Shown here piece after piece: positions 11,436 through 60,161 of a DNA stretch of 64,000 nucleotides. Source of the stretch: an uncultured bacterium. Lineage in GTDB: Bacteria; Poribacteria; WGA-4E; WGA-3G. Location: the NCBI GenBank assembly GCA_964652195.1, contig CAZZBB010000012.1:36537-100536 (forward strand). Reading direction: 5' to 3'. Below the pieces are notes generated by a model. The model had not been told where the DNA came from. It made no database searches and saw only the letters and a program-made list of their open reading frames with translations. Positions within the stretch are counted from its first letter, which is position 1. Each line of letters begins with the position of its first letter. Both the position numbers and the translations under genes were made by a program.

Positions 11436-11942
11436 GTGTCTGAAAAAATTACACTAACTTATAAGAGATTACCTGATCGAATTAATTACTTTGAACAGAT
11501 ACTACTGTATGAAAATGATGATATTATAATAACAACACAGAAAATCTGTCCATCTTCTCCAATTATATTTAATGGTCAGGAGGTATTAGCAGATAATTTT
11601 ACTGCTATTTGGTTTGTATTCACAGGGTTATGGTATGATATTGGAAAAATCTACAATCTTGATAGTGAATGGACAGGATATTATTGTGATATAATATTGC
11701 CAGTCACCAGAAGTAAAACTAAATTTGAGATTGTAGATTTATTCTTAGATTTGTGGATATCTCCTGACGGTGGTTATGCCATTCAAGATGAAGACGAATT
11801 CGAGGAAGCGGTAAAGAATGGAGTCATATCTGATGAAGTTGCCGATAAAGCAAGAAGTACTTTGGATTTTCTGATTGAGGAAGTCACTGAGGAAAACTTT
11901 CCTCCAAAAGTTGTAAAAGACTATATAATTCAAATATCATAA
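11436..11942 (+). CDS. DUF402 (FomD-like nucleoside phosphatase fold) family protein
   Basis: Shows YCDIILP....DLFLDLWISPDGGYAIQDEDEFEEAV, which matches the DUF402 pattern. Confidence 0.55.
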   Translation: MSEKITLTYKRLPDRINYFEQILLYENDDIIITTQKICPSSPIIFNGQEVLADNFTAIWFVFTGLWYDIGKIYNLDSEWTGYYCDIILPVTRSKTKFEIVDLFLDLWISPDGGYAIQDEDEFEEAVKNGVISDEVADKARSTLDFLIEEVTEENFPPKVVKDYIIQIS

Positions 11943-14147: not shown

Positions 14148-16055
14148 CTACCAATGTTTAAATGAATACATTCGCTCACCTAAAGATAAACCTAAGATCG
14201 CCCATATAGTTCCCATTACAAATTCACCCAACATTGCTCCTAAGAAGAGAGGTAGTGTTTTTCTATATGCACCGATTCCTCCGTGACGAACAATTATTGT
14301 CTTGATAGTCCAAGCAAGGAAGACTGGAAACCACAGTCTTCCAAAGTTCCAATTTCCGGCAAGTGGATAAGCGAGTGGGTGTAGTTGCCACCAAAGAAAC
14401 TTAATTCTCATCAATAATGTGCATATTGTTAATATGACACCAAATCCAAAGAAACCGAGATGTCTCCATTCCGTTTCACTTGGAATAGTTAACCAACGTT
14501 GTAGATCATTAAATGCTTCTTGTCCCCGCCAGGTTCCTATACTGCCATGAAGATAACCCGCATGAAGAAATGCAACGAATCCAATTAACAAACCGATCAC
14601 TGACGATCCCCACATCACCCACAGAAGTTGTTTATTATTTATGGAACCTTTTTCGGCTAATTTGAAGCCTTCAAGTTGATTTGGCATAGGTTGTGAACGG
14701 TAATTTCGAGTGAATCCGTATAAGAATGAAAATCCTGTTAGTGTTTGTGCTCCAATTTTTCGGGACCCGAAAATGGATGTTAGGAAGAAACTTGGTCCAG
14801 CACGATAAAAGTCTTGGGTAGGTGTACCAAGTTCAGCTCTCATTCGTGTAAATGCCAAAACTAATATAAAGTGAATACTAAAGAAACCAAGAATCCCCCA
14901 CCATGACATTCCCGCTTTGAGACAAAAACCAAACACTATAGCAATACTCATAAGAAACCCTATGAATGCACCTCTGTATCCTATTGGTTCGTGGGACATG
15001 TCAAGATCGTTTCTTAATCCGATAATTTTCTTGAATACTTTCCATAAATGTTTGTGAGTAACCCATAATGCAAAAAAGCATAAGGCAAAATAAGCACCGA
15101 GTGATTGCATATCAATGTGAGGATATCCTGGGGTTTGATTTAATCCCGTAATTGAACCAAATATGAGCTGTACTTTCCAAAACAGATAAAAAACCCAACA
15201 TGATAATGATAAACCAAGCGGCATCAAGAAACCTATTCCTATCGCATAAGGATTAAGGTGTATAGGGGTTGAGCCGATAGCATTAAACGGTTTTTCAGTA
15301 AACATTCTTCCAATATCATGTCTAATTGGTATTCCCGGTATCACTGGAAATAGAAAATTGAGTCCATTCAATAGGTCAAGTCCCAGTCCAATGCCAATAC
15401 CTATCCATAATAATCGGCTTCGATAGAAACCGCTCCCTGTTGTCATCTCATAAGGAAGTAGGATAATAGGATAACTGAGTTTTTCATGTTCAATCCACTG
15501 CTTCCGGAGAATTACACTCAGCATTATCATAGAAAATGCTAATGCTGAAAAGAATACTAACCAGTGTATTATAGGTGTAATCCATGCTTGAATATGATCT
15601 ATCTCAAAGAAATTGGATGTTCCTTCATAATAACCAGTAAGAGCATTTCGATCCATAACGGCAATCCAGTCCGGTATGTATCGAAAAAACAGTGATTGCC
15701 ATTCATTTTCGGGGGTTGCAAACCAACTTGCGTGACCCAGAATGCACATAGTTGCTTGCAATAAATCGTGTCCACTGACAACACATGCTAAGGTTACCAT
15801 TAGGTAAACAGTGAGCATTTCTGCCTGTGAGAACTTCCATTTTGGCAGGTATTTAATTAGAAACAGATTTAGGATTGTTAGGATGAAGAGCGTGAAGACG
15901 GCGTTGAAGAAGATCGCCATCGTAGTAGGGTATTGTGTTGTCCAGACAGTCTCTGTTTGAACAACCAGATAGATATTAAGTGGAAGTGAAAGTAGTCCAA
16001 TTAGAATAGAACGTAATGTGATATTTTCTGTTGATAAGACAGATGATTTTAACAT
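14148..16055 (-). CDS. Large polytopic integral membrane protein, unknown function
   Basis: 635 aa with more than 14 hydrophobic segments and many Trp/Gly-rich loops. It is the last gene of a minus-strand envelope cluster. Confidence 0.6.
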   Translation of the reverse strand: MLKSSVLSTENITLRSILIGLLSLPLNIYLVVQTETVWTTQYPTTMAIFFNAVFTLFILTILNLFLIKYLPKWKFSQAEMLTVYLMVTLACVVSGHDLLQATMCILGHASWFATPENEWQSLFFRYIPDWIAVMDRNALTGYYEGTSNFFEIDHIQAWITPIIHWLVFFSALAFSMIMLSVILRKQWIEHEKLSYPIILLPYEMTTGSGFYRSRLLWIGIGIGLGLDLLNGLNFLFPVIPGIPIRHDIGRMFTEKPFNAIGSTPIHLNPYAIGIGFLMPLGLSLSCWVFYLFWKVQLIFGSITGLNQTPGYPHIDMQSLGAYFALCFFALWVTHKHLWKVFKKIIGLRNDLDMSHEPIGYRGAFIGFLMSIAIVFGFCLKAGMSWWGILGFFSIHFILVLAFTRMRAELGTPTQDFYRAGPSFFLTSIFGSRKIGAQTLTGFSFLYGFTRNYRSQPMPNQLEGFKLAEKGSINNKQLLWVMWGSSVIGLLIGFVAFLHAGYLHGSIGTWRGQEAFNDLQRWLTIPSETEWRHLGFFGFGVILTICTLLMRIKFLWWQLHPLAYPLAGNWNFGRLWFPVFLAWTIKTIIVRHGGIGAYRKTLPLFLGAMLGEFVMGTIWAILGLSLGERMYSFKHW

Positions 16056-23325: not shown

Positions 23326-24081
23326 TTATTTTGAAACAATTGAAGTCGGGAAAGCATCGTAAGTTTTTCCGTTTATTTTTCTACCCCGTTTTGATTTTTG
23401 GACCCCACCCCATTGTTTAAAGAAGAAATGTACCTTTTCCTTTTCGCATAGATCTCGGATATCAATAACCCATTTCTCTTCCATTTTACGTGCCCCTGGA
23501 CCTGATTCTCCTCCAACAATAACCCAATTAATCTTAGTTAGATCTAAATCTGGTAAAGGACCGATAAGCGGTTCAAGTGATAAGAATTTTACTTTTGCAT
23601 TGGTTTCTCGTAGAGCCTCAATTCTATGTATGACACGACTATCTTCAACACTTACACCCATCCAGACGTTTGGGGGCCATGACAATTCCGAATTATATCT
23701 TAATAATTGTTCTGCACGTTTAGTCAAAATCTGGAATTGGTGCCAATATGCTTTTTCCATAACATAGAACACTTCTTTGATATATGATAATTCAATCTTT
23801 TCATGAAAGAGATCGCTCATAGAATTTACAAAGATCCGTCGAGGTTTTTTCCATTTTAGCGGTTGATTAAGGAGTGAACGAACTGGTTGTACTTTCTGTG
23901 TCCATTGAGGCCCGGCTTTTGTGTTTTTTGCAAAACCTTCATACGCTAATCCTTTACCAGAAAACCGTGCTGCTATGCGTTCGGCATAACAGAACCGACA
24001 TCCTTCAGAGACACGTGTGCAACCCCGTACTGGATTCCAAGTAGATTCTGTCCATTCGATGCTTGATGATATGGTAGCCAT
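23326..24081 (-). CDS. Phage Gp37/Gp68 family (DUF5131) three-Cys-motif protein
   Basis: The N-terminus WNPVRGCTRVSEGCRFCYAE carries a C-x6-C-x2-C motif. Size is 251 aa. Gene pairing matches this family. Confidence 0.65.
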   Translation of the reverse strand: MATISSSIEWTESTWNPVRGCTRVSEGCRFCYAERIAARFSGKGLAYEGFAKNTKAGPQWTQKVQPVRSLLNQPLKWKKPRRIFVNSMSDLFHEKIELSYIKEVFYVMEKAYWHQFQILTKRAEQLLRYNSELSWPPNVWMGVSVEDSRVIHRIEALRETNAKVKFLSLEPLIGPLPDLDLTKINWVIVGGESGPGARKMEEKWVIDIRDLCEKEKVHFFFKQWGGVQKSKRGRKINGKTYDAFPTSIVSK

Positions 24082-24112
24082 TTTTTATCTCCAACGAAAT
24101 TTCTAATGATTA

Positions 24113-25030
24113 TTAATTAGAATGTTGAGCTAATTCTTTTAGAAGAATGTCTTGTGCAATGTTCACTGCTGTAGGAGCCCCTTTTGGGTTACCTGCAGCA
24201 AAACATAATAGGTATAAGGGGACATTTTTTGAATTACGAAGTGGTAAGGGTTTTTCGGCAACACCACTAAATATTTCTTTTAACCTTTTCACGAAATACC
24301 GTTCAATTTCTATAAATATATCACCAGTCTTTACCCACTGATTTTGAACTTCAAACATTGGAATCTGTTGAGCAATTTTGTAGAAAACGTCATACCAAGT
24401 CTCATTACCAAAAAACAGATTCAATTTTTCTTGAATCGAAGGACGAATATCACCATTCCTTTTTAGTAATCGATTTACGGTGCCAATTGGAAATAATAAC
24501 CAAAGATCAATAGCCTTAGTTTTAGCAATAGATTGAATAGTCTTCCATTCAACCTGCATTCCAAAAGGATCAAGAAACACTAATGCTCGATGCATTCCCC
24601 ATTCTTTATTGCAAAAATCATCCAAGAATGTATTCGCATCAGATTGAAGACATTCTATATCATCTGGTAAGAAGTCTTGTTTTTGTACAAATTCATCTTT
24701 AAGTTTCTTTAATTCTGAGAAATTGTGTTCGTCTTGTTCTATAAAGAAGTATTTTTGGAATCTTGGTTTTACTTCTAACGCATTTCGAACAGATCCTTGT
24801 CGAAAATTCAGTATTTCCTGAGAAATGAGTTCAGGAAATAAAATCTCTTTTTGATCTTCATCAAGTTTTAGTTCTCTATAACCAGTTCCGGCAAAAGCAT
24901 CTACATAAGCGAATTTGAAATTTTGCTTGTTCATTATTGTTGTATAGGCACTTAAATATTTGCTTACACAATTCAACTTTTGCTCTGTCCAGCTTCCACC
25001 GAAAACCTGACCAAAGCTTTTCATCTGCAC
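24113..25030 (-). CDS. Partner protein of the Gp37/Gp68 family (TcmP-like); methyltransferase-fold-like
   Basis: Encoded 32 bp upstream on the same strand. Contains VDAFAGTG, which is like MTase motif I, and FLDPFG, which is like the DPPY motif. Identity as TIGR04474 TcmP is recalled, not computed. Confidence 0.5.
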   Translation of the reverse strand: MQMKSFGQVFGGSWTEQKLNCVSKYLSAYTTIMNKQNFKFAYVDAFAGTGYRELKLDEDQKEILFPELISQEILNFRQGSVRNALEVKPRFQKYFFIEQDEHNFSELKKLKDEFVQKQDFLPDDIECLQSDANTFLDDFCNKEWGMHRALVFLDPFGMQVEWKTIQSIAKTKAIDLWLLFPIGTVNRLLKRNGDIRPSIQEKLNLFFGNETWYDVFYKIAQQIPMFEVQNQWVKTGDIFIEIERYFVKRLKEIFSGVAEKPLPLRNSKNVPLYLLCFAAGNPKGAPTAVNIAQDILLKELAQHSN

Positions 25031-25283
25031 CTCTAAAAAATAGACTTATTGAACTAAGAGTATATAATATATTATTACGAACTGTCAATTAAAATTATCA
25101 TGTTGTTTATTATTTGAGGGTGTTTTTGTGGAATTATGGAATCGAACCGATGGTATTAGGTATAGACATAGCACCAGTGGCATGGAATGTGTATAGTTAG
25201 TTCGTGGATTCCTGAGTCTAAGACAGAAGGGCAGCATGCGCGTTTGGCATGCTGCATGAGGTTTTGTAAGTATGCTTAGTGAT

Positions 25284-25306
25284 ACACCTTTCGCACCTCT
25301 GGTGCT
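25284..25306. repeat. 23-bp repeat ACACCTTTCGCACC(T)CTGGTGCT, copy 1
   Basis: Contains the GCACC-N3-GGTGC hairpin. Copies 2 and 3 lie at 30076 and 30127, and an inverted degenerate copy at 59207. Copy 1 sits at the left edge of the GC-rich island. Confidence 0.7.
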
Positions 25307-25606
25307 GAAGATACATGAAGTAGTATTATTTTTCTAAATTGATGCCATTAGATATAACATTACTGATAGTGGTGGCAAAAAGCACACGCTTGTAATTGGT
25401 CGCAGTATATATGCAAGGGTTAATGGTAAATGGAAGTATCAGACAGGTTAGTGGTTAGAAGCTAAAAAAATTAAAAAATGGTTTGACAAGCATAGCAGCA
25501 ATTAACTACACTATATTAGGTTTTGATACAATTACGGAGCAAAATAAGCGTAGGTTCAGCAAGAACCTACGCTTATTATAGTGCTTTGCAAAACCAGAGG
25601 TTTCAC

Positions 25607-26107
25607 ATGAAATATCAATTGGTAATCCAAGACCTTAGTATACCGGTGCCAGGTGTACCTTCGTGGAGTATACCCTTATGTTCTAACCATAACGTTTACT
25701 TTGGTTGCTTAGGGCATATAGCCGAGGAGGATATAAAAACAAACCGTATAGATAGCCAATTTTATAATGGAGAAGATACAGCTATCGTCTTAGATATTGA
25801 TATAGATGCCAAAGTCGTGAGACACACCTGTTTGGCCCGTAAAAAAGAGACGACTGTGCAGTCAACAGTGGCGTTGGGTATAGGTGATGATATAGTGGAT
25901 GCGGGGGCTAAATTCACAGTAGGTCAGACGACGTATATAGCGATAACCGAGAGTGTAAAAGAGACGGTTAATACCCCTGTGGTTTCGCTAAGAGATAGTG
26001 TATATGCCGGCGTAGATTTTGATCGTCGTGCGCTATGCTCTGCCCACGCGGATTTTGATTTTGAGGGCAATGATTTTGACGAAGGTTCGGTCTGGTATCA
26101 GCCTTGA
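25607..26107 (+). CDS. Hypothetical protein
   Basis: An internal ATG at 25607 follows an AGAGG RBS; the ORF track starts at 25523, but a strong hairpin at 25544-25575 falls inside that longer ORF. No recognisable domain. It is the first gene of the GC-richer island. Confidence 0.4.
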   Translation: MKYQLVIQDLSIPVPGVPSWSIPLCSNHNVYFGCLGHIAEEDIKTNRIDSQFYNGEDTAIVLDIDIDAKVVRHTCLARKKETTVQSTVALGIGDDIVDAGAKFTVGQTTYIAITESVKETVNTPVVSLRDSVYAGVDFDRRALCSAHADFDFEGNDFDEGSVWYQP

Positions 26108-26172
26108 ATAACTTTTAGATGCGACTTGGCACCCCGGTTTATACTGTCGGGGTACCCTAAAGTAGAATTCCC

Positions 26173-27792
26173 ATGAGAATAAAACATGCTTTTACAATAC
26201 TTTTTGTTATCCTCTTTGGCATTAGTGTTTTTATCTTTTTACGAAGTTCTAATGTCCTTCCCAATGGTGATAAACTTGTCTTTCTCAATGGTGATAAACT
26301 GAAACCGAGAACTCCGGATGGTCCTGTCTCCACGTTAGAAAAAGCGGCGCGTGTGGCGTTGCATCCACTCGCAGCAGATTGGAAAACAGTTGAAGCAGCA
26401 ATGAAGCAGCGTGTTTTATCTTGGGAGGATTGGGCTCGGAAAACAGTTGAAATCGGGTGTGCGATGGACGTGCTGTATGGACATATAAACACCCCTGAAG
26501 AGGTTGCAGCGGCACGCGAAAAACAGTTAGCGATACAACTGAAATGGGCTGCCGACTGTGAATCTAGAGGGTCTATTCTTCCTAACTATCCTTTTGAGAT
26601 TCCGAAGGTTTCCCCTAAGAAGCGGTTTGACTACGAAGGACCTCAGACGAGCGAAGCACTGCTGGCAGCGTTTGATCGGAAGTGGATGGAACGTTATCCG
26701 CAATCGGTGGATTGGGACGCACATTATCCCAAAGCCGCCTGGATTGACCGAATTGTGAGTCTGGGCGGTGAAGTCCAAAGTTACGGCGATTATAGTTTTT
26801 ACCTTAAATTGCGCAGAGACCTTATCAAACACAAAGAGTCCCCGCACAAATGGCATAGTGGGGCGTTCGGTATCCCTCCAACAACGAACTTTGAGGAATA
26901 CGAAACAGGCTATATCAATAGAAAGATTTGGGAAAATGATATACGCAAAGAGGTTCGCTCTAACTACCCTGACGAGCCCAAGATTACAACCTATTTCCCC
27001 AGTGATCAACCTGATAAATACCTTCCTGTAGTAGGTAACATGACGTATGTCTACAGAAAGCCGAATAGCAGTGCAGTGAGAACCTATGGTAAATTGCTGA
27101 CTGATGAAGAGGTAAAGGACCTGAGAAATAAAGGCATAGAACCGAAGGATGTTGAAATTGTCTACATTGATGACGAATACAATGTCCTTACCGAAAAACC
27201 GAAACCCTATAACCATCAAGAGTGGTTAGAAAAAAACTCTTATGACATTGTCCCCGAAGGACTCCGTGCGCCGGATGGCACCATCGTGTCCCCTGAGCGT
27301 TATCAGGAAATAAGAGGTCAAGAGATGCCTTATGAGACGCGGCAAAGGTATGATGAATATATCGGTGATTCCCCTGCTGCTGTGGATCCTGCTGCTGCTG
27401 AGGCGGAACGCCGAGCCGTATTAACCCGCGAAGCTGCCCGTGCGGAATTTGAACGATTTAAAGAGGATATGCGCCAAATAGAAAAGTTTCAGTCTATGGC
27501 AGCAAACGAGGTATCCCGTAAGTTTGCGTTGGAGTTTCTGTCTCAATACACGCCGAAGTCCGCCACGGATAAACGGCTCCAAACGGCACTGCAAACGATG
27601 TTTCAACGTGGGTTTGATGACGGGCTGCACAGCCTGCGAAAAGACGACCCTGCCCTGGCAGCAGAGTTAGAACGGCAGCTTGCCGAAACATACAGACCAC
27701 CACAACCGCAGTTGCGACGACTAAAGACCGTGCCCCAAAAGACCGTGCCCCCTAATCCAGCGGAGACACCTCCCGCAGGGGATACGGACTAA
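26173..27792 (+). CDS. Hypothetical 539-aa protein with N-terminal membrane anchor
   Basis: Long ORF with about 50% GC and a hydrophobic N-terminus (AFTILFVILFGISVFIFL). The antisense strand also carries long ORFs, as expected for GC-rich DNA. No motif recognised. Confidence 0.5.
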   Translation: MRIKHAFTILFVILFGISVFIFLRSSNVLPNGDKLVFLNGDKLKPRTPDGPVSTLEKAARVALHPLAADWKTVEAAMKQRVLSWEDWARKTVEIGCAMDVLYGHINTPEEVAAAREKQLAIQLKWAADCESRGSILPNYPFEIPKVSPKKRFDYEGPQTSEALLAAFDRKWMERYPQSVDWDAHYPKAAWIDRIVSLGGEVQSYGDYSFYLKLRRDLIKHKESPHKWHSGAFGIPPTTNFEEYETGYINRKIWENDIRKEVRSNYPDEPKITTYFPSDQPDKYLPVVGNMTYVYRKPNSSAVRTYGKLLTDEEVKDLRNKGIEPKDVEIVYIDDEYNVLTEKPKPYNHQEWLEKNSYDIVPEGLRAPDGTIVSPERYQEIRGQEMPYETRQRYDEYIGDSPAAVDPAAAEAERRAVLTREAARAEFERFKEDMRQIEKFQSMAANEVSRKFALEFLSQYTPKSATDKRLQTALQTMFQRGFDDGLHSLRKDDPALAAELERQLAETYRPPQPQLRRLKTVPQKTVPPNPAETPPAGDTD

Positions 27793-27982
27793 ATGAAGCA
27801 TCTGATACATTGGAGCAGCCTCGTGCTGCTCCTTATCGGGGTGCGGACTACTTCTATAGCCGGACCACTACAGACGTAGCTTCTCTGTGAGTACGTCACT
27901 GGGATGAGATAGACGTGGCGGCTATCCAAAGAGACTATCAACCTTAGAGACAGAAGAACAGATATCAGAGTATCTGCTGTGG

Positions 27983-28845
27983 GTGCTTCTCTTTGTACCG
28001 ACACTTTACCTCTTTTCACCGCCCTATCGTAGTGGCGGGGGATGGACAACCCATGCCACCGCTTTTTTACTCGCCTCCCCTATCGTCATGCTACTGCTAC
28101 GCACCGGACGGTATTTTCTGACACGCACACAGCACCCCTTTGCAAAGGTTGTCACAGAAAAGATGTCCGCACGCGGTATCTCACTGGTTCTCTGTGCCAT
28201 ATGCATCCTCAGCGGAATTGCTTATATCGTGCTTGTGCGGGATACATTTTGCACAGGATACACCAATATCAAGAACACGTATCTAACGCGACGACAGAAC
28301 AAAAACCATTAGATTTTCTAAAAACATACAACGTGACACACATACTTCTCAGTGAAGAAGATGTGCTGAACATCGCTTCTCTGCACACGGATGAACAAGA
28401 CGAATACCTAACTTCTATGGTGAGACTACTGCCACGCTCTTATACCGGCAGTACACATGCCAGATTGATACCGGCACACAAAAAAACGTTGCTCAGTTTT
28501 GTGGAGATCGATTTCTATCACAAACCAACTACCGCCACAGCAAAACTAAAAAACGGTAAAACAGTAAATATCGGATACGTCAAGTCCGATAGCACAGCAG
28601 AGAAAAAAAATGAAAAATACGGGGGAATGCTACATCTATTCGATCCAAAAACACACCAAGAAGCCATATACTACCTATCCCCGCAGATTTGGAATAGTTT
28701 CGCTATCAAACTATTTTTCCGAAACCAATATAGCAAAGCGTTTGTGCCCGTATATCCACAACAAACAGGAAACGCAAAAGTCAAAATATGGGAGATACAG
28801 TATCCGACAGATATAAATGAAAATCTGAAATATCTCGAAAGGTAA
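27983..28845 (+). pseudogene. Probable frameshifted gene (hypothetical membrane protein)
   Basis: ORF 27983-28312 reads as a membrane N-terminus. ORF 28042-28845 is protein-like only after about 28300 (KPLDFLKTYNVTHILLSEEDV...). Its first 80 codons are His/Arg/Cys-rich out-of-frame noise. A +1/-1 shift near 28290-28315 would join the two halves. Confidence 0.35.
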
Positions 28846-29358
28846 ATGAAAATGATACGCATCTTGAAACAATGCTGCATATATGGCGGGATCCTTTTCT
28901 TTGGACTTGTCATTACAAATGCGACACTACAACGATTGGTAAAACCAACACCGATAAAAGTGTACGTGATACCGAAAACAGAAAAGAAAGAATATATAAA
29001 AAGAAATACAAAACTCTATGAACACCTAAAACCGAAACCGATTGACCGGCAGAAAGTATTTGATAACACAATCATTGAGAATAACATCTTCGCACCCCTC
29101 GGATACAAACCGCCCAAAAAAACACACACTTATAGACTCGTCGGAACACAGATACCAATCGGGAGAGAAACAGAGGCAATAGCGATATTACAAGAGACCA
29201 CCGGCGAGAAAAATATGCTGAGCGTTTCCATCGGAACAAAAATAGCACAGGACACAGTGGTCATGGACATAAAACCCAAGCAGATAATCATCAAAAAAGG
29301 GAATAGACGGACCCTCCTGAGGTTAGAGACATGGCTACTCCTAAATAACAGAAGGTAG
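28846..29358 (+). CDS. Hypothetical single-TM protein (weak GspC/PilP-like pattern)
   Basis: N-terminal TM (CCIYGGILFFGLVI). The C-terminal region RLVGTQIPIGRETEAIAIL...IIIKKGNRRTLL is reminiscent of GspC/PilP beta-domains. Low confidence. Confidence 0.4.
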   Translation: MKMIRILKQCCIYGGILFFGLVITNATLQRLVKPTPIKVYVIPKTEKKEYIKRNTKLYEHLKPKPIDRQKVFDNTIIENNIFAPLGYKPPKKTHTYRLVGTQIPIGRETEAIAILQETTGEKNMLSVSIGTKIAQDTVVMDIKPKQIIIKKGNRRTLLRLETWLLLNNRR

Positions 29359-29367
29359 GCACACAGC

Positions 29368-29989
29368 ATGAAAGCAAACGCAATTACGAGCACACGCATC
29401 GTTCTCACATTTATGCTCATCGCAATGTTCGGGGAAAATATATATAGATATGGCAGCCACAGCAACAATTCCACTGATCTTCATACTCGATGCCATTGAC
29501 GGATATGTCGCACGAAAGTATAAACAGGAAAACGCCTCCGGCGCCGTCTTAGACATTGCAGCAGATAGAATTATTGAAAATGTATTTTGGATTTACTTCA
29601 CCGCAAATCAGGTGATCCATTTCTGGATGCCGGTCGCAGTACTCACACGCGGATTCGTTACGGACGCAATACGCAGCTTCGCACTCAAAGACGGAAAGAT
29701 CCCTTTTGAAATGAACACAAAATATTGGACACACGCAATGACAAGCTCACGCATCTCACGCGCATGCTCAGGAACATCAAAAATGAGCGCATTCTTCGCA
29801 ATGGCAGCATTACTCGCTATCAAAAATCAGCAGATACACACCCAGCAGCTCGAGAAACTTCAGACAACAACTCTTATACTCGCAATCACCGCTGTCGCAA
29901 TCTGTATACTACGAGGGATACCTGTCATAATTGAGGGGCGACATCAAAAAAGCATTCAAACAATAATCTGGGTTATACTATTCATGTAA
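29368..29989 (+). pseudogene. CDP-alcohol phosphatidyltransferase family gene, apparently frameshifted
   Basis: From 29368 frame 1 gives MKANAITSTRIVLTFMLIAMF, a typical N-terminus, then a stop. From 29450 frame 2 carries D(x)2DG(x)2AR(x)8G(x)3D(x)3D (LDAIDGYVARK...GAVLDIAADRI). The shift falls in AAAATATATATAGATATGG. Confidence 0.5.
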
Positions 29990-30075
29990 TACCATTTCTA
30001 ATTAATTTTTGTTCCATTACCTAATGTTACTATAGTTTGGACAATTTTCGTAATTTCTTGAACAACTGTATACAT

Positions 30076-30098
30076 ACACCTTTCGCACCGCTGGTGCT
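30076..30098. repeat. 23-bp repeat ACACCTTTCGCACCGCTGGTGCT, copy 2
   Basis: Identical to copy 3 and 22 of 23 identical to copy 1. Confidence 0.7.
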
Positions 30099-30126
30099 CG
30101 GTTACTTGTGGCATTTACGTTTCTAC

Positions 30127-30149
30127 ACACCTTTCGCACCGCTGGTGCT
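30127..30149. repeat. 23-bp repeat ACACCTTTCGCACCGCTGGTGCT, copy 3
   Basis: Tandem with copy 2 at a 51-bp period. Confidence 0.7.
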
Positions 30150-30426
30150 ACGGATTTAGTCAATAGTATTCTTTTTCGGAAAGTTTCATGTTGTGGTTTA
30201 ACTCATCAATTAATAAGTTCTTATCAAACAACAGTCTGGGGAATGGTATCAAACATTAACACCCAAGCACCCGTAGTTAGGGATGTGTCTAAACATAAAG
30301 AATAGACTTACAAGTCTTTGTTTAATTCTTAAAACTGTCCAAACTATAGTATAAATTAGAACATGTCTTATAAATCATACATTTGGGATTTTTTGATCTT
30401 GTCCATGTACTCCAGATTGAAACAAC

Positions 30427-30445
30427 GGACGGGGAGACCCCGTCC
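30427..30445. repeat. GC-rich hairpin repeat GGACGGGG-AGA-CCCCGTCC followed by CTACGA
   Basis: Perfect 8-bp stem. A second copy lies at 37836-37854 (GGACGGGGAAACCCCGTCCCTACGA). Confidence 0.6.
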
Positions 30446-30601
30446 CTACGAAGAGGAATTGAATTTGTATGGTCATTTCGTATTAGTGAGATACACTGTA
30501 GTTATATCTTATTGCTGAAGTTGGATATACGTATGATGGGTTCAACGCATCCAACTGTAAGCGGAGAAACATTCGAATATCTGATTAAAACTATAGACGA
30601 T

Positions 30602-31183
30602 TTATCGATTTTCAAAGGCAGTAATGTCTGCTTCGTATTGAAGTGTCCAACCAATTTCATCGAGTCCGTTTAGTAGACAGTACTTTTCAAAGTCGCCTAT
30701 CTCAAATGTGTGGGTAGTTCCATCAGGACAAATTACCGATTGTACTTCGAGGTCAATCATCAATTGATAGCCTTCTGTGTCTTGTGCTGCTTTGCTAAGT
30801 TCTGTGATGATATCTGCTGGTAATGAGACCGGTAGGATTCCATTCTTATAGCAATTGTTGCGGAAGATGTCTGCAAAGGAGGGTGCGAGAACGGCTTTAA
30901 ATCCGTATTGCTGAAGTGCCCAGGGGGCATGTTCACGAGAACTACCGCAACCGAAGTTTATTCCAGCGATGAGAATACTGGCGTCAGCATACTTGGGTTG
31001 GTTCAATATAAAATCTGGATTTGGATCACCGTTTTCAAGATACCGCCAATCGTTAAAGAGAAATTCACCGAATCCAGTACGTTCAATTCGTTTTAGGAAT
31101 TGTTTCGGGATAATCTGATCGGTATCAACATTAATTCGGTCAAGAGGTACGACGAATCCAACATGTTCTTTAAATGCTTCCAT
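30602..31183 (-). CDS. leuD: 3-isopropylmalate dehydratase small subunit
   Basis: Shows [17 protein letters not shown] and [12 protein letters not shown]. Confidence 0.9.
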
Positions 31184-31575
31184 TATAACACCTCAATGGG
31201 TTCTTTTCGTTTCCTTTCAGTTTGATCGAAGTCTGTATCGAAACTAATGAGTTGCATCTCATATTTCGCAGCGACAGCGTATTGGTATGCATCGTCAAAG
31301 TCAAGATTGAATTTATCTGCTATGCGTTCCAACGTTTTAAGATCTTCTGGGGATAATGATAGGATGCCAACTCCGTCAACAATTATGTCCTCAAGAAACG
31401 AATTAAAAAGCGTAAAATATTTCAATCGAAACAGAATAATCCCTATAGAATGTAGGGACAGATCCGTTATGTAGATTGTGCTCAAGTCGTTAATTTGTAA
31501 GAATGATTGGACATCATCCTTTTTGTCTTGTCCCAACAAAGCTTCAAGGAAGATGTTAGTATCTGCGAGGTACAC
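31183..31575 (-). CDS. PIN-domain toxin (VapC-like)
   Basis: [12 protein letters not shown] fits the PIN N-terminal Asp motif. A GTG start at 31575 follows GGAGG and overlaps the antitoxin stop as TAGTG; the ORF track extends to 31656. Its stop overlaps the leuD start. Confidence 0.6.
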
Positions 31576-31778
31576 TATTCCCTCCAATCTGACGCTTTTT
31601 TCTGAAGTTCGAGGGCTGTAAACTGGTCTCGAAACGCTTTTAATCCACCAATCCATTCTAAGTTTGGTTTTTTCTTCCGTTTTGAACTTTTTTTTGTATG
31701 TAAGAAATCAATGAAGTGAATGACTTCTTCTTGGAGTTCCGGAGGAAGTTCCCTAATTTTTTCAATGATAGATTCCAT
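31575..31778 (-). CDS. DUF2281-like antitoxin
   Basis: 67 aa. MESIIEKIRELPPELQEEVIHFIDFLHTKK matches the DUF2281 pattern. It is translationally coupled to the downstream PIN gene. Confidence 0.55.
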   Translation of the reverse strand: MESIIEKIRELPPELQEEVIHFIDFLHTKKSSKRKKKPNLEWIGGLKAFRDQFTALELQKKASDWRE

Positions 31779-31817
31779 TGTTGTCTCCGTATTTTTCAGG
31801 GTAGAGTGGACACAGGT

Positions 31818-31845
31818 ATTTTAAGCAAGCCTTTGACTTATCCAA
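31818..31845 (-). promoter_or_regulatory. Candidate sigma70-type promoter for the toxin-antitoxin pair
   Basis: Minus strand reads TTGGAT, 16 bp, TAAAAT, with GGAG 8 nt before the antitoxin ATG. The -35 box overlaps the leuC stop. Confidence 0.3.
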
Positions 31846-33238
31846 ACGTTCGTATGTCCACAAAATGTCCTGTTACAGCAGTTGCTGCAGCCATTTGTGG
31901 ACTAACAAGGTGTGTCCTTCCACCTTTACCTTGTCTACCCTCAAAGTTTCTGTTAGATGTGCTTGCACACCTTTGTCCTGGTGTCAGCGTGTCTGGATTC
32001 ATTCCAAGGCACATACTGCATCCTGCTTCTCTCCATTCGAAACCTGCTGATTGGAAGATCTCATCAAGTCCTTCTGCTTCAGCTTGCCGTTTGACGGCTT
32101 GTGAACCAGGCACAACCATTGCACTGACGGTGTCTGCGACCTTTCTACCTTTTGCCACCTCTGCGGCTGCCCGTAAATCACTAATACGAGAGTTGGTACA
32201 ACTACCAATAAAAACTCGATCAACTGGGATGTTGGTTATCGGTGTACCCGGTTTTAAATCCATATATTCTAATGCGTGTTCAGCTGCCCGTTTTTCATCT
32301 TGTGATTCCATTTTATCAGGATCTGGTACCTGTCCAGTAACATCGGTGACCATACCAGGATTTGTACCCCAAGTAATTTGGGGTGCTATATCGGCAGCAT
32401 CAAGAATAAGGGTTTTATCATAGGTTGCCCCGTCATCTGTTGGGAGTTGTTTCCAACGTTCAACTGCAGCATCAAATGCTTCGTCTTTAGGAGCGAAACG
32501 TTTTCCGGCAAGGTATTCATAGGTCGTGTCATCTGGTGCAATCATCCCTGCGCGAGCACCTGCTTCAATTGACATATTACATACAGTCATCCGTTCTTCA
32601 ATGCTAAGGGATCGTATAGTGGAACCTGTGTATTCAACTACAGCGCCATTTCCTCCATCAATACCGATATGTCCGATAATAGAGAGGATGATGTCTTTTG
32701 CTGTTACCCCATAAGGGAGTGTGCCGTCAACCCGGATTTCAAAGGTTTCTGATTTTTGTTGTAGTAAGCATTGTGTCGCAAGGACATGTTCAATTTCACT
32801 TGTTCCGATACCGAAAGCGAGTGCTCCTAAGGCACCATGTGTTGAGGTGTGGCTATCACCGCATACAATTGTCATGCCGGGTTGAGTGATGCCGAGTTCT
32901 GGACCAATGACGTGGACGATTCCTTGATCGGGACTGTTGATGTCGTAGAGAGGAATGTCAAACTCTTTACAGTTTTGTGATAGAGTCTCCATCTGCTTGG
33001 CAGCGATCAGGTCAGTAATAGGCAGCGACCTATCCGTCGTCGGTACGTTGTGATCCATAGTTGCGAAGGTTAACTCTGGTCTGCGTACTTTTCTGTTGTT
33101 GATTCGTAACCCTTCAAATGCTTGTGGGGATGTGACCTCGTGTACAAGGTGTGTGTCAATATATAGTATGGGAACTTCGTCTTCGGATGCTCGGACGAGA
33201 TGTGTGTCCCATATTTTTTCGTACATTGTTTTTTTCAT
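31838..33238 (-). CDS. leuC: 3-isopropylmalate dehydratase large subunit
   Basis: 466 aa with an aconitase-family Fe-S ligand region ([18 protein letters not shown]). Confidence 0.9.
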
Positions 33239-33957
33239 AATTTTTCTTTACCTTTAAATAACGAGCAGATCTCCCCTGACAACGGATAATTTCAAACCCT
33301 CTTGCTTCTAAATAGGGATAAACATGGCGATTTCGATAGTCGTAGGAGGCTTTTGTGATTTGATCGTAACTGGAATCAATAGCAAGGATTTTCAAGTCAA
33401 TGCGTCGTTTTATAGCGGGTTAGCGTTTTCATTTCTGGTGTTATAACTCTCTTTCATTAGCACGTTCAATCAAACGTTCAATCATTCGCTGCTCGACCTC
33501 AATTAGTGTGCATCCTATAGGTGTTCGGGCTTGCACTTCGTTAATTGCGCGTTTTTTGTCCAGTATCCCTAAGCCAAGAATACCCATATCATACTCGGGA
33601 CGTTGTCGAATACGCTCCGCAACCAACTCTGACTGTTGTTCAGGTGTCAATTGAATGAACGAAAACCGTGCGGGTTGGTTTTCCACCACTTCCCGTAAAG
33701 AGAGCCATTGCCCGTTGGGTGCCATTGCCACTGGACGGCTCCAATGGTCTTCGCGAGGTATCGGTGTGTCATTCGTCATAAATATTTCCTCAATACTGTG
33801 TGTTCAGAATCAAGATTATGCTGTCCACTACTTCATCGAGAGCAAATAATAGTAGTATCATACTATAAAAACACCCGAAAATCAACAAAAACGCATTCTT
33901 CAGAATTATTTAGTGTTGAGAATTTTCAGTGCTTTAGCATGGGTGTAAAGTCAATAT

Positions 33958-34266
33958 CTATAAATCCATTTTTAGTTGCTTTAGCATCTCAATTACTTCA
34001 TCTGCTACAAGGATATACAAACTCTTAGGATCAAACAGATAGTTTTTGAACAACAACCAACATATCTTTGACCAAGGGAGATCTGTGCTAAAGAAGCGTT
34101 GTATCGTGCGATAGCTACCTCCTTTTGATGTCCCCCGTGAGATATTTAACATGGTGACTTGACCAGTCATCGCAAGCAGTGCAAATACAACTTGGCATAA
34201 CTGGTGGATCATAGTAGTGGATAGACATGGATTAAGTACAGTAATTAATGCTATAATTCCTGGCAT
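33958..34266 (-). pseudogene. Possible DDE transposase N-terminal fragment (IS4/IS701-like)
   Basis: 102 aa. RGTSKGGSYRTIQRFFS...YILVADEVIE resembles the N-terminal region and first catalytic D stretch of IS4/IS701-type transposases. It is truncated. Recall-based. Confidence 0.3.
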
Positions 34267-58539: not shown

Positions 58540-59061
58540 CTACTGTTTCGGTTCGGTAGCGTGTATGAATTCTTTGTATTCAGGTAGGTTGCGAAGTCTA
58601 TCAAATGCAGATTCCATTTTAGCAGATTCGAGCATTGCCTTATCTAATCGAACCGCTTCACGGAGAGAAATAATTGCCTTTTCTATAGTTTTTCCACTTG
58701 TTTTCTCTGCTTGAATGGAATAACCGATGGCAAGGTTATAATATGCCTTTGCGAAATTAGGATCTAACTGTGTTGCACGTTCCCAGGCAATGATTGCGTC
58801 ATATAGTTCACCCATATTTCCATATACAGCACCCAGATTGTAGTATGGCAGTGCCCACCCCGGCTCATTTTGAATTGCCAATTTGAACTCAGAAATAGCT
58901 TGTACATGGTCACCGTTCTTCGCGGAAGCAAGTCCCCATTTATAGTGTGATTGCGCAACCTCGTTGGGTTCTTGATCATTCGTCTCGTCGGAATATGGAA
59001 TAGTATTCAGTCCACATCCAATTAATATACAAAATGCACTGAATAATGTAAGTGTTTTCAT
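58540..59061 (-). CDS. TPR-repeat lipoprotein
   Basis: Signal then lipobox LIGCG. Three TPR-like units (AISEFKLAIQNEPGWALPYYNLGAVY...). Confidence 0.65.
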   Translation of the reverse strand: MKTLTLFSAFCILIGCGLNTIPYSDETNDQEPNEVAQSHYKWGLASAKNGDHVQAISEFKLAIQNEPGWALPYYNLGAVYGNMGELYDAIIAWERATQLDPNFAKAYYNLAIGYSIQAEKTSGKTIEKAIISLREAVRLDKAMLESAKMESAFDRLRNLPEYKEFIHATEPKQ

Positions 59062-59206
59062 AGATTAATCCCCAATTTCTCTTACAATACTATACCTGAT
59101 TCTGTGTATTGAGTCAAATAAATAGGAAAATTACAGCTGTAAACATCTTATCAATTCAGGGCTTACGCAATACCTCTTAAAGTCCCCTGATATTGTCCAA
59201 ATCGGC

Positions 59207-59229
59207 AGCACCAGCAGTGCGGAATGTGG
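59207..59229. repeat. Inverted, degenerate copy (19 of 23) of the 23-bp ACACCTTTCGCACCGCTGGTGCT repeat
   Basis: AGCACCAGCAGTGCGGAATGTGG is the reverse-complement orientation. It lies in the 1.1-kb AT-rich non-coding region. Confidence 0.4.
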
Positions 59230-60044
59230 ATAGAAAACTTAAATACAAAAATGAATAAAAATGAAGAATATCTTAATCAATAACAACTAATATATCACAA
59301 TAACACAAAATAAATTAAAAACACTTGTCAAAATAGAAATAAAATTGTAGAATACTGTATTGTTCACCTTTTATATACGAATACTAATTTATTACAATAG
59401 AGTTACGAGAATTTATATATTTAGAAATTAGTGTTCTTTAAGAATAACCCAATACAACACAACTATATAATATCATTTCTATTTGAATAGTTCACATTAT
59501 AGAAAATAAAGAAAATATCTATAGCTAACAACTAAAAACATAGAATGGATTCAAGAAATTTAGATGATGCATTTCACATATTCATATCAAAAATTAGGAG
59601 AAAAAATGATGACTACCTATAAAAACGATCCTAAATACAAAAGTTTAATTACGTCAAAAAAACGACATTATTTGATGGTTGGAAATGTCAAAATCAGCAA
59701 CAACAATAAAAACACAAAATCACACATTTTAGAAATTCTTATAAATGCAATTCAAAGTGGAGTAAAGTCAGTCTATGACAGGGTTTGCAGGGGTAATTTA
59801 CACCAATTTCAATGTCACACGATGTGACAAAAAGTGTAACTTTTTCCTTGTTTCGACACATAGAGGAAAACACCATGAACACGATATTACCATCAGAGAA
59901 TTTAGGATTAAAAGCCTGTTTTTGCACCCTATTATTTGTCTCTATATTAGGATTAAATCGCTGTTTTTTGCCTTTTTAACTGACAGAAATATCATCTTGT
60001 GTAAGGATGTAATACCATTTCTATATGATAATATAACATTATTT

Positions 60045-60117
60045 CGTAGGTCGGGTAGAAGCGATAGCAAAACCCGACTTTTTATTCTATCATCTCGGGT
60101 TTCGTGCCTCAACCCGA
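60045..60117 (+). terminator. Nested inverted repeats with a terminator-like hairpin (GTCGGGT...ACCCGAC + TTTTTATT) and an alternative outer 11-bp pairing
   Basis: GTAGGTCGGGT at 60045-55 pairs either with ACCCGAC at 60073-79 (followed by the T-run) or with ACCCGACCTAC at 60107-17. A CGGGTT...AACCCG hairpin lies in between. Confidence 0.35.
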
Positions 60118-60161
60118 CCTACAATATGTTATGACAATTTGTCAATTAGAAATGGTATAAT

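What the first reader, a model, noticed from the sequence alone, without database searches (positions are those of the whole stretch)
25100..30351. GC-rich (~50%) foreign island of hypothetical genes bounded by a 23-bp hairpin repeat, with two apparent frameshifts
Base composition shifts sharply relative to the AT-rich flanks. The island encodes a 166-aa and a 539-aa hypothetical protein, a split membrane protein, a small TM protein and a split CDP-alcohol phosphatidyltransferase. Copies of ACACCTTTCGCACCNCTGGTGCT sit at its left edge (25284) and right edge (30076 and 30127). The right edge is itself a TIR-bounded 324-bp element. This may be a horizontally acquired, decaying island. Alternatively, given the frameshifts, it may be an assembly chimera.
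Basis: partly seen in the sequence, partly recalled or inferred. Interest (0 to 1): 0.7.

Follow-up and report, generated by a model that had tools for sequence, protein, structure and literature searches.

The report
Decaying Poribacteria glycosylation gene cassette
The "foreign island" is a real, half-eroded copy of a multi-copy gene cassette found only in sponge-associated Poribacteria. Intact copies are built around an STT3-type oligosaccharyltransferase. The cassette sits between short dispersed repeats and appears to have been exchanged recently between related lineages, which makes it a fairly ordinary case of gene-cluster decay.

Summary
Window 25100-30351 is 43.7% G+C against 37.7% for the rest, with a 48% core, so "~50%" overstates it. 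The 23-mer sits at 25284, 30076 and 30127. The ORFs and both reading-frame breaks are as described.

- **What the genes are.** They are a degraded copy of a Poribacteria-specific, multi-copy cassette: secreted A/B protein, 531-aa anchored protein, 190-aa protein, 841-aa STT3/AglB/PglB-like oligosaccharyltransferase, 165-aa protein, CDP-alcohol phosphatidyltransferase.
- **State in the window.** Only the 539-aa and 170-aa genes are intact. The "split membrane protein" is two remnants of the transferase gene joined across deletions. The 166-aa ORF is a 5'-truncated remnant. The phosphatidyltransferase has a 2-nt deletion in an (AT) run.
- **Not an assembly chimera.** A contig from a different assembly is 100% identical over 24962-30056. 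A roughly 95%-identical relative (L001) has the cassette at the same locus with different deletions.
- **The 23-mer.** It is a dispersed, strictly intergenic REP-like repeat, not an island-specific boundary. The 324-bp element carries the ends of an IS701-like insertion sequence.
- **Some support for lateral exchange.** Synonymous G+C is about 3 SD above the window's other genes. Divergence from L001 drops sharply exactly at 25150, the first base of a 202-nt flanking repeat.

Exchange within the phylum is plausible. Origin outside it is not.

The parts
25150..25351 (+). A 202-nt repeat element at the left edge. It is made of an inverted pair of 23/25-mer units (25170-25194 inverted and degenerate, 25282-25306 direct) around a second dispersed palindrome (25231-25255).
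   Evidence: L001 has a second copy at its right edge (14284-14534), 85-95% identical. The element folds as one long hairpin, -53.7 kcal/mol, z = -2.56. The palindrome 25231-25255 also occurs twice in L032. Low divergence from L001 begins at exactly 25150.
25483..25577 (+). A promoter-like site (TTGACA, 18 nt, TACACT) followed by a perfect 15-bp hairpin, upstream of the 166-aa ORF.
   Evidence: Consensus scan and inverted repeat I2. These are pattern matches only; function is not shown.
25607..26107 (+). The 166-aa ORF. It is a 5'-truncated remnant of the cassette's 255-290 aa secreted A/B protein, with the signal peptide and first ~125 residues lost.
   Evidence: tblastn to L002 B120 residues 2-116. 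Intact single ORFs of 255 aa (L003 15792-16559) and 260 aa (L006 2727-3509) align only from about residue 126 onward. The ORF is split in L001. The patch 25818-25996 is about 30% diverged from L001 inside an otherwise 99%-identical block.
26173..27792 (+). An intact 539-aa membrane-anchored protein of the 'C531' family. It has an N-terminal TM helix, a confidently predicted core with no known structural relative, and a coiled-coil and Pro-rich tail. An in-frame 24-nt tandem duplication lies at 26253-26300.
27794..27944 (+). Remnant of the 190-aa cassette gene D. It starts at 27794 and has a premature stop; only residues ~17-51 remain recognisable.
   Evidence: tblastn hit to D190 residues 17-51 at 27840-27944. 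blastn to L002 ends at 11750, 150 nt into the gene.
27932..28845 (+). Two remnants of the ~841-aa STT3/AglB/PglB-like oligosaccharyltransferase gene: residues 233-339 (27932-28252) and 609-832 (28243-28842). They are joined out of frame across a deletion of about 800 nt.
   Evidence: tblastn and blastn to L002. The intact homologue matches STT3 by sequence (PDB E 0.0045; profile 1.6e-6), TIGR04154 at 1e-16 and by fold (Foldseek AglB 7e9s, E 2.8e-14; the top 19 hits are all OST catalytic subunits).
28846..29358 (+). An intact 170-aa single-pass membrane protein (cassette gene F).
   Evidence: 54% identical to L002 F165 residues 1-139. N-terminal hydrophobic helix. Weak similarity to the GspC HR domain, E 1.2e-4, far below the cut-off.
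29368..29989 (+). CDP-alcohol phosphatidyltransferase gene (cassette gene G), disrupted by a 2-nt deletion in an (AT) run at about 29442.
   Evidence: PF01066, E 3e-15, 57 bits against a cut-off of 22. The nucleotide alignment with three intact homologues shows a 2-nt gap. The two reading frames are shown. The same sequence is in Logan contig L041.
30028..30351 (.). A 324-bp MITE-like element with 28-nt terminal inverted repeats. Inside it lie a direct doublet of the 23-mer (30076-30098, 30127-30149) and about 30 further bases homologous to the left repeat (to 30177).
   Evidence: Inverted repeats. The first 21 nt are identical to the terminus of an IS with a 425-aa DDE_5/DDE_Tnp_1 transposase in L024. 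The element is absent from L001. Short-read contigs stop at 30056 and 30455, on either side of it.

Best explanation
The segment is a pseudogenising copy of a multi-copy gene cassette specific to Candidatus Poribacteria.

Intact copies elsewhere, sometimes in tandem, have this order:
- a secreted 255-290 aa protein (A/B)
- a 531-aa N-terminally anchored protein (C)
- a 190-aa anchored protein (D)
- an ~841-aa STT3/AglB/PglB-type oligosaccharyltransferase (E)
- a 165-aa anchored protein (F)
- a 200-aa CDP-alcohol phosphatidyltransferase (G)

In the window, deletions removed the 5' half of A/B, most of D and about two thirds of E, and a 2-nt slippage deletion broke G. Only C (539 aa) and F (170 aa) remain intact.

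Inferred: the intact cassette is a membrane module that transfers a lipid-linked glycan onto envelope proteins or another envelope acceptor. C and A/B would be fast-evolving, recombining surface components.

Inferred: the window copy has lost its own transferase and is shrinking towards the C-F pair, which is seen without a transferase gene in other genomes. If C and F still work, they would depend on a paralogue elsewhere in the genome.

The cassette lies between copies of dispersed extragenic repeats: a 202-nt inverted-pair element on the left, and a doublet of the same 23-mer inside an IS-derived MITE on the right.

The block from the first base of the left repeat (25150) to the end of G (29974) is far less diverged from the nearest relative than either flank. 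I infer it was exchanged recently between related lineages by recombination anchored in the repeat. Its raised synonymous G+C is a trait of the cassette family and stands out here because this host genome is unusually A+T-rich.
For: Family and taxonomy.
- The 539-aa protein has 45 homologues. None matches a Pfam family, and the only informative source name is Candidatus Poribacteria.
- All 27 genome loci are Poribacteria MAGs, several with more than one copy per chromosome.

Cassette order and decay.
- tblastn with the L002 cassette proteins maps the same gene order across about 20 loci.
- The window retains B 2-116, C 1-531, D 17-51, E 233-339 and 609-832, F 1-139 and G 27-189 (nucleotide level).
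- L001 carries different deletions at the same locus.
- C followed directly by F, with no D, E or G, recurs in L015 and L017.

Identity of E.
- Sequence: STT3A E 0.0045; profile against STT3B 1.6e-6; many homologues carry PF02516; TIGR04154 1e-16.
- Structure: AF2 pLDDT 80.8; Foldseek gives AglB, STT3 and PglB at E 1e-14 to 1e-11.
- Residues: D56, D170-x-D172 and E356 are invariant.

Identity of G. PF01066 hit and a 2-nt deletion.

The sequence is real.
- L041 is 100% identical to window 24962-30056.
- L042 and L043 are 100% identical to 30455-34112 and 30455-33221.

Composition.
- Island GC3 is 0.38-0.46 against 0.288 +/- 0.051 for other ORFs.
- The cassette exceeds its flanks in 23 of 25 loci.

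Recent exchange.
- dS is 0.049 for C, against 0.17 (DUF5131), 0.19 (TcmP), 0.41 (leuD) and 0.49 (leuC).
- Identity to L001 is 0.96-1.00 inside the block and 0.85-0.95 outside.
- Mismatches are dense up to 25149, then only 4 occur in the next 600 nt. Position 25150 is the first base of the repeat.

Nature of the repeat.
- An exact-match scan of metagenomes found 11 further loci.
- All 25 occurrences in the window, L001 and those loci are intergenic, between unrelated housekeeping genes, and 10 of 13 sites are direct doublets.
Against: - No function of any cassette protein has been tested. 'Glycosylation module' rests on homology of E alone.
- E has xWSYG where canonical enzymes have WWDYG. The Asp that reads the +2 Ser/Thr of the sequon is missing, so E may not be an N-X-S/T protein glycosyltransferase at all.
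- C has no recognisable fold relative, and G is only assigned to a superfamily.
- dN/dS of C (0.38) rests on about 40 substitutions. It cannot separate weak constraint from recent relaxation, so C and F may also be dying.
- The recent-exchange inference rests on a single comparison genome. Both sequences are metagenome assemblies, and strain mixing during assembly could produce an identity mosaic.
- The two flanks themselves differ in dS (0.17-0.19 against 0.41-0.49). The whole region may be a general recombination mosaic in which the island is just one more tract.
- The right junction (30057-30454) is not covered by any second assembly.
Confidence: 0.8

Rival explanations
1. A classical genomic island acquired from outside the lineage by site-specific integration, with the 23-bp repeats as attL/attR. 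It would now be decaying because it is useless to the host.
For: - G+C and GC3 are atypical.
- Direct repeats lie at both edges.
- The island shows a younger coalescence than its flanks.
Against: - There is no integrase, recombinase or tRNA/tmRNA target in or beside it.
- All homologues of the cassette's 531-aa gene are Poribacteria.
- The cassette family is multi-copy and richer in G+C than its flanks in most Poribacteria genomes.
- The 23-mer is dispersed between unrelated housekeeping genes in other contigs.
- The nearest relative has the island at the same site.
Confidence: 0.05
2. An assembly chimera or sequencing artefact. On this reading the island was joined to this chromosome wrongly and the frameshifts are errors.
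For: - The composition changes abruptly.
- There are two frame breaks, one of them in an (AT) run that is prone to indel error.
- Short-read contigs do not bridge 30057-30454.
Against: - L041 reproduces 24962-30056 base for base, including the left junction, the 28245 deletion junction and the 2-nt deletion.
- L001, from a different assembly, has the order TcmP - repeat - cassette - repeat - leuD.
- The 'split membrane protein' comes from deletions of about 1.1 kb and about 0.8 kb, not from a 1-nt error.
Confidence: 0.04
3. A vertically inherited cassette with no lateral exchange. Its higher G+C would come from expression-linked codon bias or GC-biased gene conversion among paralogous cassettes. 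Its low divergence from L001 would come from the flanks, not the island, having been replaced by recombination with more distant strains.
For: - The cassette's GC3 excess is found across the family (23 of 25 loci).
- Paralogues clearly recombine: P0037 is 10-36% identical at the N-terminus and 94% at the C-terminus, and a roughly 30%-diverged patch lies at 25818-25996.
- The two flanks have different dS values, so recombination affects the whole region.
Against: - Pseudogene stretches of the island are 96-100% identical to L001, far below the neutral divergence of either flank.
- This reading requires two independent replacements, both ending at the island's edges.
- The left boundary coincides to the base with the end of a repeat. 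That fits recombination anchored in the repeat better than chance endpoints of flank replacement.
Confidence: 0.11

Closest known systems
STT3 / AglB / PglB oligosaccharyltransferases (GT-C fold, Pfam PF02516) and their gene clusters
   Same: - The intact 841-aa cassette protein has a multi-helix transmembrane N-terminal domain (the hydrophobicity scan and the AF2 helices are consistent with about 13 TM helices, though I did not count them) plus a C-terminal periplasmic domain.
- Its best sequence and fold matches are all OST catalytic subunits.
- It keeps the acidic residues of the first external loop, the DxD motif and the loop-5 Glu.
- As with archaeal AglB and the Campylobacter pgl locus, it sits in an operon with other membrane proteins.
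   Different: - The WWDYG motif reads xWSYG, with no Asp.
- The query itself gets no Pfam hit at E <= 0.1.
- The partner genes (531-aa protein with no known structural relative, 190-aa and 165-aa anchored proteins, CDP-alcohol phosphatidyltransferase) are not those of the pgl or agl clusters.
- No glycosyltransferases or flippase were seen among the cassette genes.
- The cassette is multi-copy per genome.
- In the window the gene is only two fragments.
REP / REPIN / BIME extragenic palindromic repeats
   Same: - The units are short (23-25 nt) with a small palindrome.
- They are strictly intergenic and dispersed between unrelated genes.
- They occur as direct doublets and inverted pairs, and cluster with other palindromic units.
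   Different: - The palindrome is only 5 bp.
- Copy number per genome is unknown.
- No RAYT transposase was looked for or seen.
- The doublet 'spacers' are themselves conserved, so the mobile or duplicated unit is larger than the 23-mer.
MITEs derived from IS701/IS4-type insertion sequences
   Same: The 324-bp element has no ORF of note. Its 28-nt terminal inverted repeats have 21 outer bases matching the terminus of a full IS with a DDE_5/DDE_Tnp_1 transposase in another Poribacteria genome.
   Different: - There is no clear target-site duplication: TAATGT on one side, TAAATT on the other.
- Only one further partial copy was found (L032).
- It carries the REP-like doublet inside it.
Decaying paralogous gene clusters in host-associated bacteria, undergoing reductive evolution with deletional bias
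   Same: Several independent deletions and a slippage frameshift have struck a redundant paralogous cluster. Two close relatives carry different lesions.
   Different: The island is younger than its flanks, and its boundary coincides with a repeat. This suggests the already damaged copy was still being passed between lineages.

Membership tests
Horizontally acquired genomic island (classical) | Base composition and codon usage differ from the host genome | tested here: met
   43.7% against 37.7% G+C, the highest of all same-size windows. GC3 is 0.38-0.46 against 0.288 +/- 0.051. The same excess is seen for this cassette in 23 of 25 Poribacteria loci.
Horizontally acquired genomic island (classical) | Integrase or recombinase present, with insertion at a tRNA/tmRNA or other att site | tested here: not met
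   ARAGORN found 0 genes. Rfam gave no hit at gathering threshold, and only a 20-bit chance match at E <= 5. No recombinase domain was found in any island ORF.
Horizontally acquired genomic island (classical) | Absent from closely related genomes at the same locus | tested here: not met
   L001, about 95% identical, has the cassette between TcmP-like and leuD. Only one close relative was available.
Horizontally acquired genomic island (classical) | Evolutionary history differs from that of the flanking genes | tested here: met
   dS is 0.049 in the island against 0.17-0.49 in the flanks. The change in mismatch density falls at 25149/25150.
STT3/AglB/PglB oligosaccharyltransferase (applies to 27932-28845) | GT-C fold: multi-pass transmembrane N-terminal domain plus a C-terminal periplasmic domain | tested here: met
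   Met for the intact homologue (L002 12178-14700): AF2 pLDDT 80.8, pTM 0.81. The top 19 Foldseek PDB hits are OST catalytic subunits, E 3e-14 to 4e-10. I did not count the TM helices.
STT3/AglB/PglB oligosaccharyltransferase (applies to 27932-28845) | Catalytic acidic residues: EL1 Asp, DxD motif, EL5 Glu | tested here: met
   D56, D170, D172 and E356 are invariant in 33 homologues. The DxD region aligns to the STT3 'DNEG' segment.
STT3/AglB/PglB oligosaccharyltransferase (applies to 27932-28845) | WWDYG acceptor-binding motif | tested here: not met
   The aligned segment reads (P/E)WSYG. W588 and G591 are invariant and the Asp is replaced by Ser.
STT3/AglB/PglB oligosaccharyltransferase (applies to 27932-28845) | Complete open reading frame in the window | tested here: not met
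   Only residues 233-339 and 609-832 of about 841 remain, in two frames.
CDP-alcohol phosphatidyltransferase (PF01066) | Profile match above the curated cut-off, and the D-x2-D-G-x2-A-R ... G-x3-D-x3-D motif | tested here: met
   57.3 bits against a cut-off of 22. DAIDGYVARKYKQENASGAVLDIAADRI can be read directly in the ORF.
CDP-alcohol phosphatidyltransferase (PF01066) | Intact reading frame | tested here: not met
   There is a 2-nt deletion relative to three homologues. The N-terminal 26 codons are in another frame.
REP / REPIN-type extragenic repeat | Short imperfect palindrome that is multi-copy and strictly extragenic | tested here: met
   5-bp stem. 25 of 25 occurrences in 13 sequences are intergenic. 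An exact-match scan found 11 metagenome loci.
REP / REPIN-type extragenic repeat | Occurs as inverted pairs or clusters | tested here: met
   Inverted pair at 25170-25194 / 25282-25306, folding as one hairpin. Direct doublets followed by inverted variants in L030 and others.
REP / REPIN-type extragenic repeat | A cognate RAYT (TnpA-REP) transposase in the same genome | not testable with these tools
   Only 64 kb of this genome is available, and no such gene lies in the window.
MITE (applies to 30028-30351) | Terminal inverted repeats matching an autonomous IS, small size, no transposase | tested here: met
   28-nt inverted repeats. The terminus is identical over 21 nt to the L024 IS, which encodes a DDE_5/DDE_Tnp_1 transposase.
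MITE (applies to 30028-30351) | Target-site duplication and multiple genomic copies | tested here: inconclusive
   The flanks are TAATGT and TAAATT. No second copy lies in the window. One partial copy is in L032. Short-read contigs break on both sides of the element, which hints at repetitiveness.

The most novel reading that the evidence does not exclude
The intact cassette may be an undescribed envelope-glycosylation module restricted to one phylum. It would combine an STT3-type transferase lacking the canonical WWD acceptor motif, a CDP-alcohol phosphatidyltransferase, and fast-evolving, recombining anchored proteins with no known structural relative. It would exist in many copies per genome and move between loci and lineages by homologous recombination at portable ~200-nt extragenic repeats. 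On this reading the window copy is a snapshot of a cassette being pared down to a transferase-less C-F pair that depends on a paralogous transferase elsewhere in the genome.
Probability: 0.2. Interest if true: 0.6.

Novelty: new member of a known kind. Interest (0 to 1): 0.35.

Why it matters
For this window the result is mainly a clarification. The anomaly is neither an artefact nor a foreign island. It is a paralogous gene cluster caught in decay, flanked by ordinary dispersed repeats.

Two side results are worth keeping.
1. Poribacteria are uncultivated sponge symbionts. They carry many copies of an unannotated cassette centred on an STT3-like oligosaccharyltransferase with an altered acceptor motif, next to rapidly diversifying anchored proteins. 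I found no paper in the searched library that describes it. If it glycosylates envelope proteins, it bears on how these symbionts present themselves to their host and to phage.
2. The drop in divergence falls exactly at the edge of a 202-nt repeat. This is a clean small example of extragenic repeats acting as portable homology for exchanging gene cassettes.

Tried and rejected
- **tRNA/tmRNA or known RNA at the left edge.** I suspected this from a GGAATCGAACC string. ARAGORN and Rfam found nothing.
- **Mini-CRISPR array.** The 23-mer doublets have about 26-nt 'spacers', but these spacers are conserved between copies at unrelated loci. Rejected.
- **Structured regulatory RNA in the 202-nt left element.** It folds as a long hairpin (z = -2.56). 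However, the differences between its two L001 copies are not compensatory, and its parts are dispersed repeats.
- **Conserved upstream element as the window's repeat.** Cassettes in 10 other loci have a conserved element upstream. blastn shows it is not homologous to the window's repeat and is absent from the window.
- **Pfam and NCBIfam.** No hits for the 166-, 539- and 170-aa proteins, apart from a sub-threshold GspC match for the 170-aa protein.
- **Exact-protein look-up of the TcmP-like neighbour.** Nothing on record, so I found no 'empty site' allele.
- **Literature.** Searches for Poribacteria with STT3, oligosaccharyltransferase or N-glycosylation, and for the run accession, returned nothing relevant.

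Full report

Yes, with one correction.
- The stated interval 25100-30351 is 43.7% G+C against 37.7% for the rest of the window. No other window of the same size exceeds 43.4% (mean 37.8%, SD 2.3).
- The excess is not just an effect of amino-acid content. Third-codon-position G+C is 0.38-0.46 for the four island ORFs, against 0.288 +/- 0.051 (maximum 0.42) for 35 other ORFs.
- The 23-mer occurs exactly where stated, and chance would give none.
- The 28-nt inverted repeats of the 324-bp element are present.
- The ORFs and both reading-frame breaks are as described.

**2. What the genes are**

The 539-aa protein has 45 database relatives. None matches a Pfam family, and the only informative source name is Candidatus Poribacteria. 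A pattern scan of 185,579 species genomes returned 27 loci, all from Poribacteria MAGs and often several per chromosome.

In a 6.4-Mb Poribacteria contig (L002) the homologue heads a gene series that occurs twice within about 16 kb, with other family members between the two copies. The series is 531 aa, 190 aa, 841-845 aa, 165 aa, then a 200-aa CDP-alcohol phosphatidyltransferase. Mapping these proteins onto all loci by tblastn shows the same order in about 20 loci. It is usually preceded by a secreted protein of 255-290 aa.

The large protein is an STT3/AglB/PglB-type oligosaccharyltransferase.
- Its only PDB sequence matches are STT3 (E 0.0045 for the single sequence; 1.6e-6 for a 33-sequence profile).
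- Many family members carry PF02516, and it matches TIGR04154 at 1e-16.
- An AlphaFold model (pLDDT 80.8, pTM 0.81) has AglB, STT3 and PglB as its top 19 structural matches, at E 3e-14 to 4e-10.
- The catalytic acidic residues are invariant (D56, D170-x-D172, E356).
- The WWDYG motif reads xWSYG, so acceptor recognition is probably not canonical.

**3. State of the copy in the window**

| Gene | Coordinates | State |
|---|---|---|
| A/B (secreted protein) | 25607-26107 | The 166-aa ORF aligns only to the last ~130 residues; signal peptide and first domain are gone |
| C (539 aa) | 26173-27792 | Intact, with an in-frame 24-nt duplication |
| D (190 aa) | 27794-27944 | Only the first ~150 nt remain, with a stop |
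| E (transferase) | 27932-28252 and 28243-28842 | Residues 233-339 and 609-832, abutting out of frame; the 'frameshift' is a deletion junction missing about 800 nt |
| F (170 aa) | 28846-29358 | Intact |
| G (phosphatidyltransferase) | 29368-29989 | 2-nt deletion inside an (AT) run |

The nearest relative (L001) has the cassette at the same locus with different lesions.
- It keeps more of D and E.
- It lacks window 28939-29572.
- It has A/B split.
- It carries an IS-type HTH fragment after G.

Decay is therefore ongoing and independent in the two lineages. C followed directly by F, without D, E or G, also occurs in L015 and L017. The C-F pair may therefore be a stable end state. dN/dS for C is 0.38, which is compatible with this but not decisive.

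**4. Artefact?**

No. A Logan assembly of run SRR16090826 contains a 5,095-nt contig identical to window 24962-30056 with no mismatch or gap. It spans the left junction and both frame breaks. Two further contigs are identical to 30455-34112 and 30455-33221. I do not know whether the window was assembled from the same reads, so this is independence of assembler, not necessarily of data.

The 400 nt between 30056 and 30455 are not bridged. L001 nevertheless has the same adjacency of cassette and leuD.

**5. The repeats**

The 23-mer is one unit of a dispersed extragenic repeat family.
- An exact-match scan of metagenome contigs found it at 11 further loci. The neighbouring genes checked in L030 and L038 are unrelated housekeeping genes: M61 peptidases, alcohol dehydrogenases, an ABC ATPase and purH.
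- All 25 occurrences examined are intergenic, and 10 of 13 sites are direct doublets 49-59 nt apart.
- In several loci the doublet is followed by inverted variants and by other palindromic units.
- Its own hairpin is only 5 bp.

In the window the left copy is part of a 202-nt element (25150-25351). That element contains an inverted, degenerate partner (25170-25194) and another dispersed palindrome (25231-25255), and folds as one long hairpin. L001 has a second, 85-95% identical copy of this 202-nt element at the right edge of its cassette. The ancestral arrangement was therefore repeat - cassette - repeat.

In the window the right copy is reduced to the doublet plus about 30 nt. It lies inside the 324-bp element. 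That element's termini are identical over 21 nt to those of a complete IS encoding a DDE_5/DDE_Tnp_1 transposase in another Poribacteria genome. The element is best read as an IS701-like MITE, although it shows no clean target-site duplication.

**6. Foreign or not?**

Not from outside the phylum. The cassette's G+C excess is a family trait, seen in nearly all loci by total G+C and in 23 of 25 by GC3. It is simply largest here because this host genome is the most A+T-rich.

There is, however, clear evidence of a separate recent history.
- Synonymous divergence between the window and L001 is 0.049 for the 539-aa gene.
- It is 0.17 and 0.19 for the two genes to the left, and 0.41 and 0.49 for leuD and leuC to the right.
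- Even the pseudogene stretches are 96-100% identical.
- Mismatches are dense up to position 25149 and then almost stop, with 4 in the next 600 nt. Position 25150 is the first base of the 202-nt repeat.
- The right-hand repeat copies are only about 84% identical between the two genomes.

The simplest reading is that the block 'left repeat + cassette' (25150-29974) was exchanged between related lineages, with a crossover anchored in the repeat. This is an inference from one genome pair.

A patch of about 180 nt at 25818-25996 is about 30% diverged inside the otherwise near-identical block. It looks like a conversion tract from another paralogue.

**7. Mechanism, with shown and inferred steps**

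Shown:
- the cassette's composition
- the identity of E and G by homology
- the lesions
- the distribution of the repeat family
- the divergence mosaic

Inferred:
- The intact cassette transfers lipid-linked glycans to envelope acceptors.
- C and A/B are variable envelope components.
- C and F in the window may still function with a transferase encoded elsewhere.
- Exchange happens by homologous recombination at the repeats.

**8. Comparison and novelty**

As a window feature this is a new example of known things: a decaying paralogous cluster, REP-like repeats and a MITE. The cassette family itself appears to be undescribed in the searched literature. It differs from the pgl and agl systems in its motif, its partner genes and its copy number. 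That is a lead for other loci where it is intact, not a property of this window.

**Scores:** interest 0.35; confidence in the main explanation 0.8.

Noticed in passing
L002 5690-5960 and 8720-9000; also L006, L007, L011, L014, L016, L020, L021 and L024 upstream of the A gene: A non-coding element of about 170-230 nt upstream of the cassette's first gene is 73-88% identical across loci whose proteins are only 35-60% identical. It reads as two or three hairpins with some covarying stems, each followed by a T-run. After them comes a near-perfect promoter (TTGAAA, 17 nt, TGGTATTAT), then AAGGAGAT and ATG. It is absent from the window's copy.
   Followed up: partly
window 23326-25030 (minus strand): The left neighbours are a DUF5131 protein (weak match to 'radical SAM mobile pair protein A') and a three-Cys-motif partner protein TcmP (TIGR04474, E 9e-60). 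NCBIfam describes this two-gene module as mobile. Synteny with L001 breaks just beyond it.
   Followed up: no
window 31183-31778 (minus strand): A PIN-domain toxin and a DUF2281 antitoxin pair sit between leuC and leuD. L001 has only the DUF2281 gene there, because window 31271-31560 is missing from L001.
   Followed up: no
window 60040-60130 and L030 5405-5440: A second type of extragenic palindromic repeat starts with GTAG (GTAGGTCGG...CCGACCTAC). It occurs as an inverted pair in the window and beside the 23-mer cluster in L030.
   Followed up: no
window 59207-59224 (minus strand), within the 28.5% G+C stretch 59001-60000: A diverged copy of the 23-mer unit with about 30 nt of its downstream context (TTCCGCACTGCTGGTGCTGCCGATTTGGACAATA) lies about 140 nt upstream of a lipoprotein-like ORF. 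It follows a very A+T-rich intergenic region of about 900 nt.
   Followed up: no
window 33958-34266 (minus strand): A 102-aa ORF matches the N-terminus of DDE_5 transposases (E 3e-8). It is an IS fragment of the same superfamily as the IS whose ends bound the 324-bp element.
   Followed up: no
L004 12328-12875, L016 3534-4422, L025 11176-12049: In several genomes the transferase gene lacks roughly residues 130-660 and the two ends abut. This is either a recurrent deletion or a genuine short isoform of about 300 aa.
   Followed up: no
window 26253-26300: An in-frame 24-nt tandem duplication (NGDKLVFL / NGDKL...) lies in the low-confidence linker after the membrane anchor of the 539-aa protein. 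It is absent from L001.
   Followed up: partly
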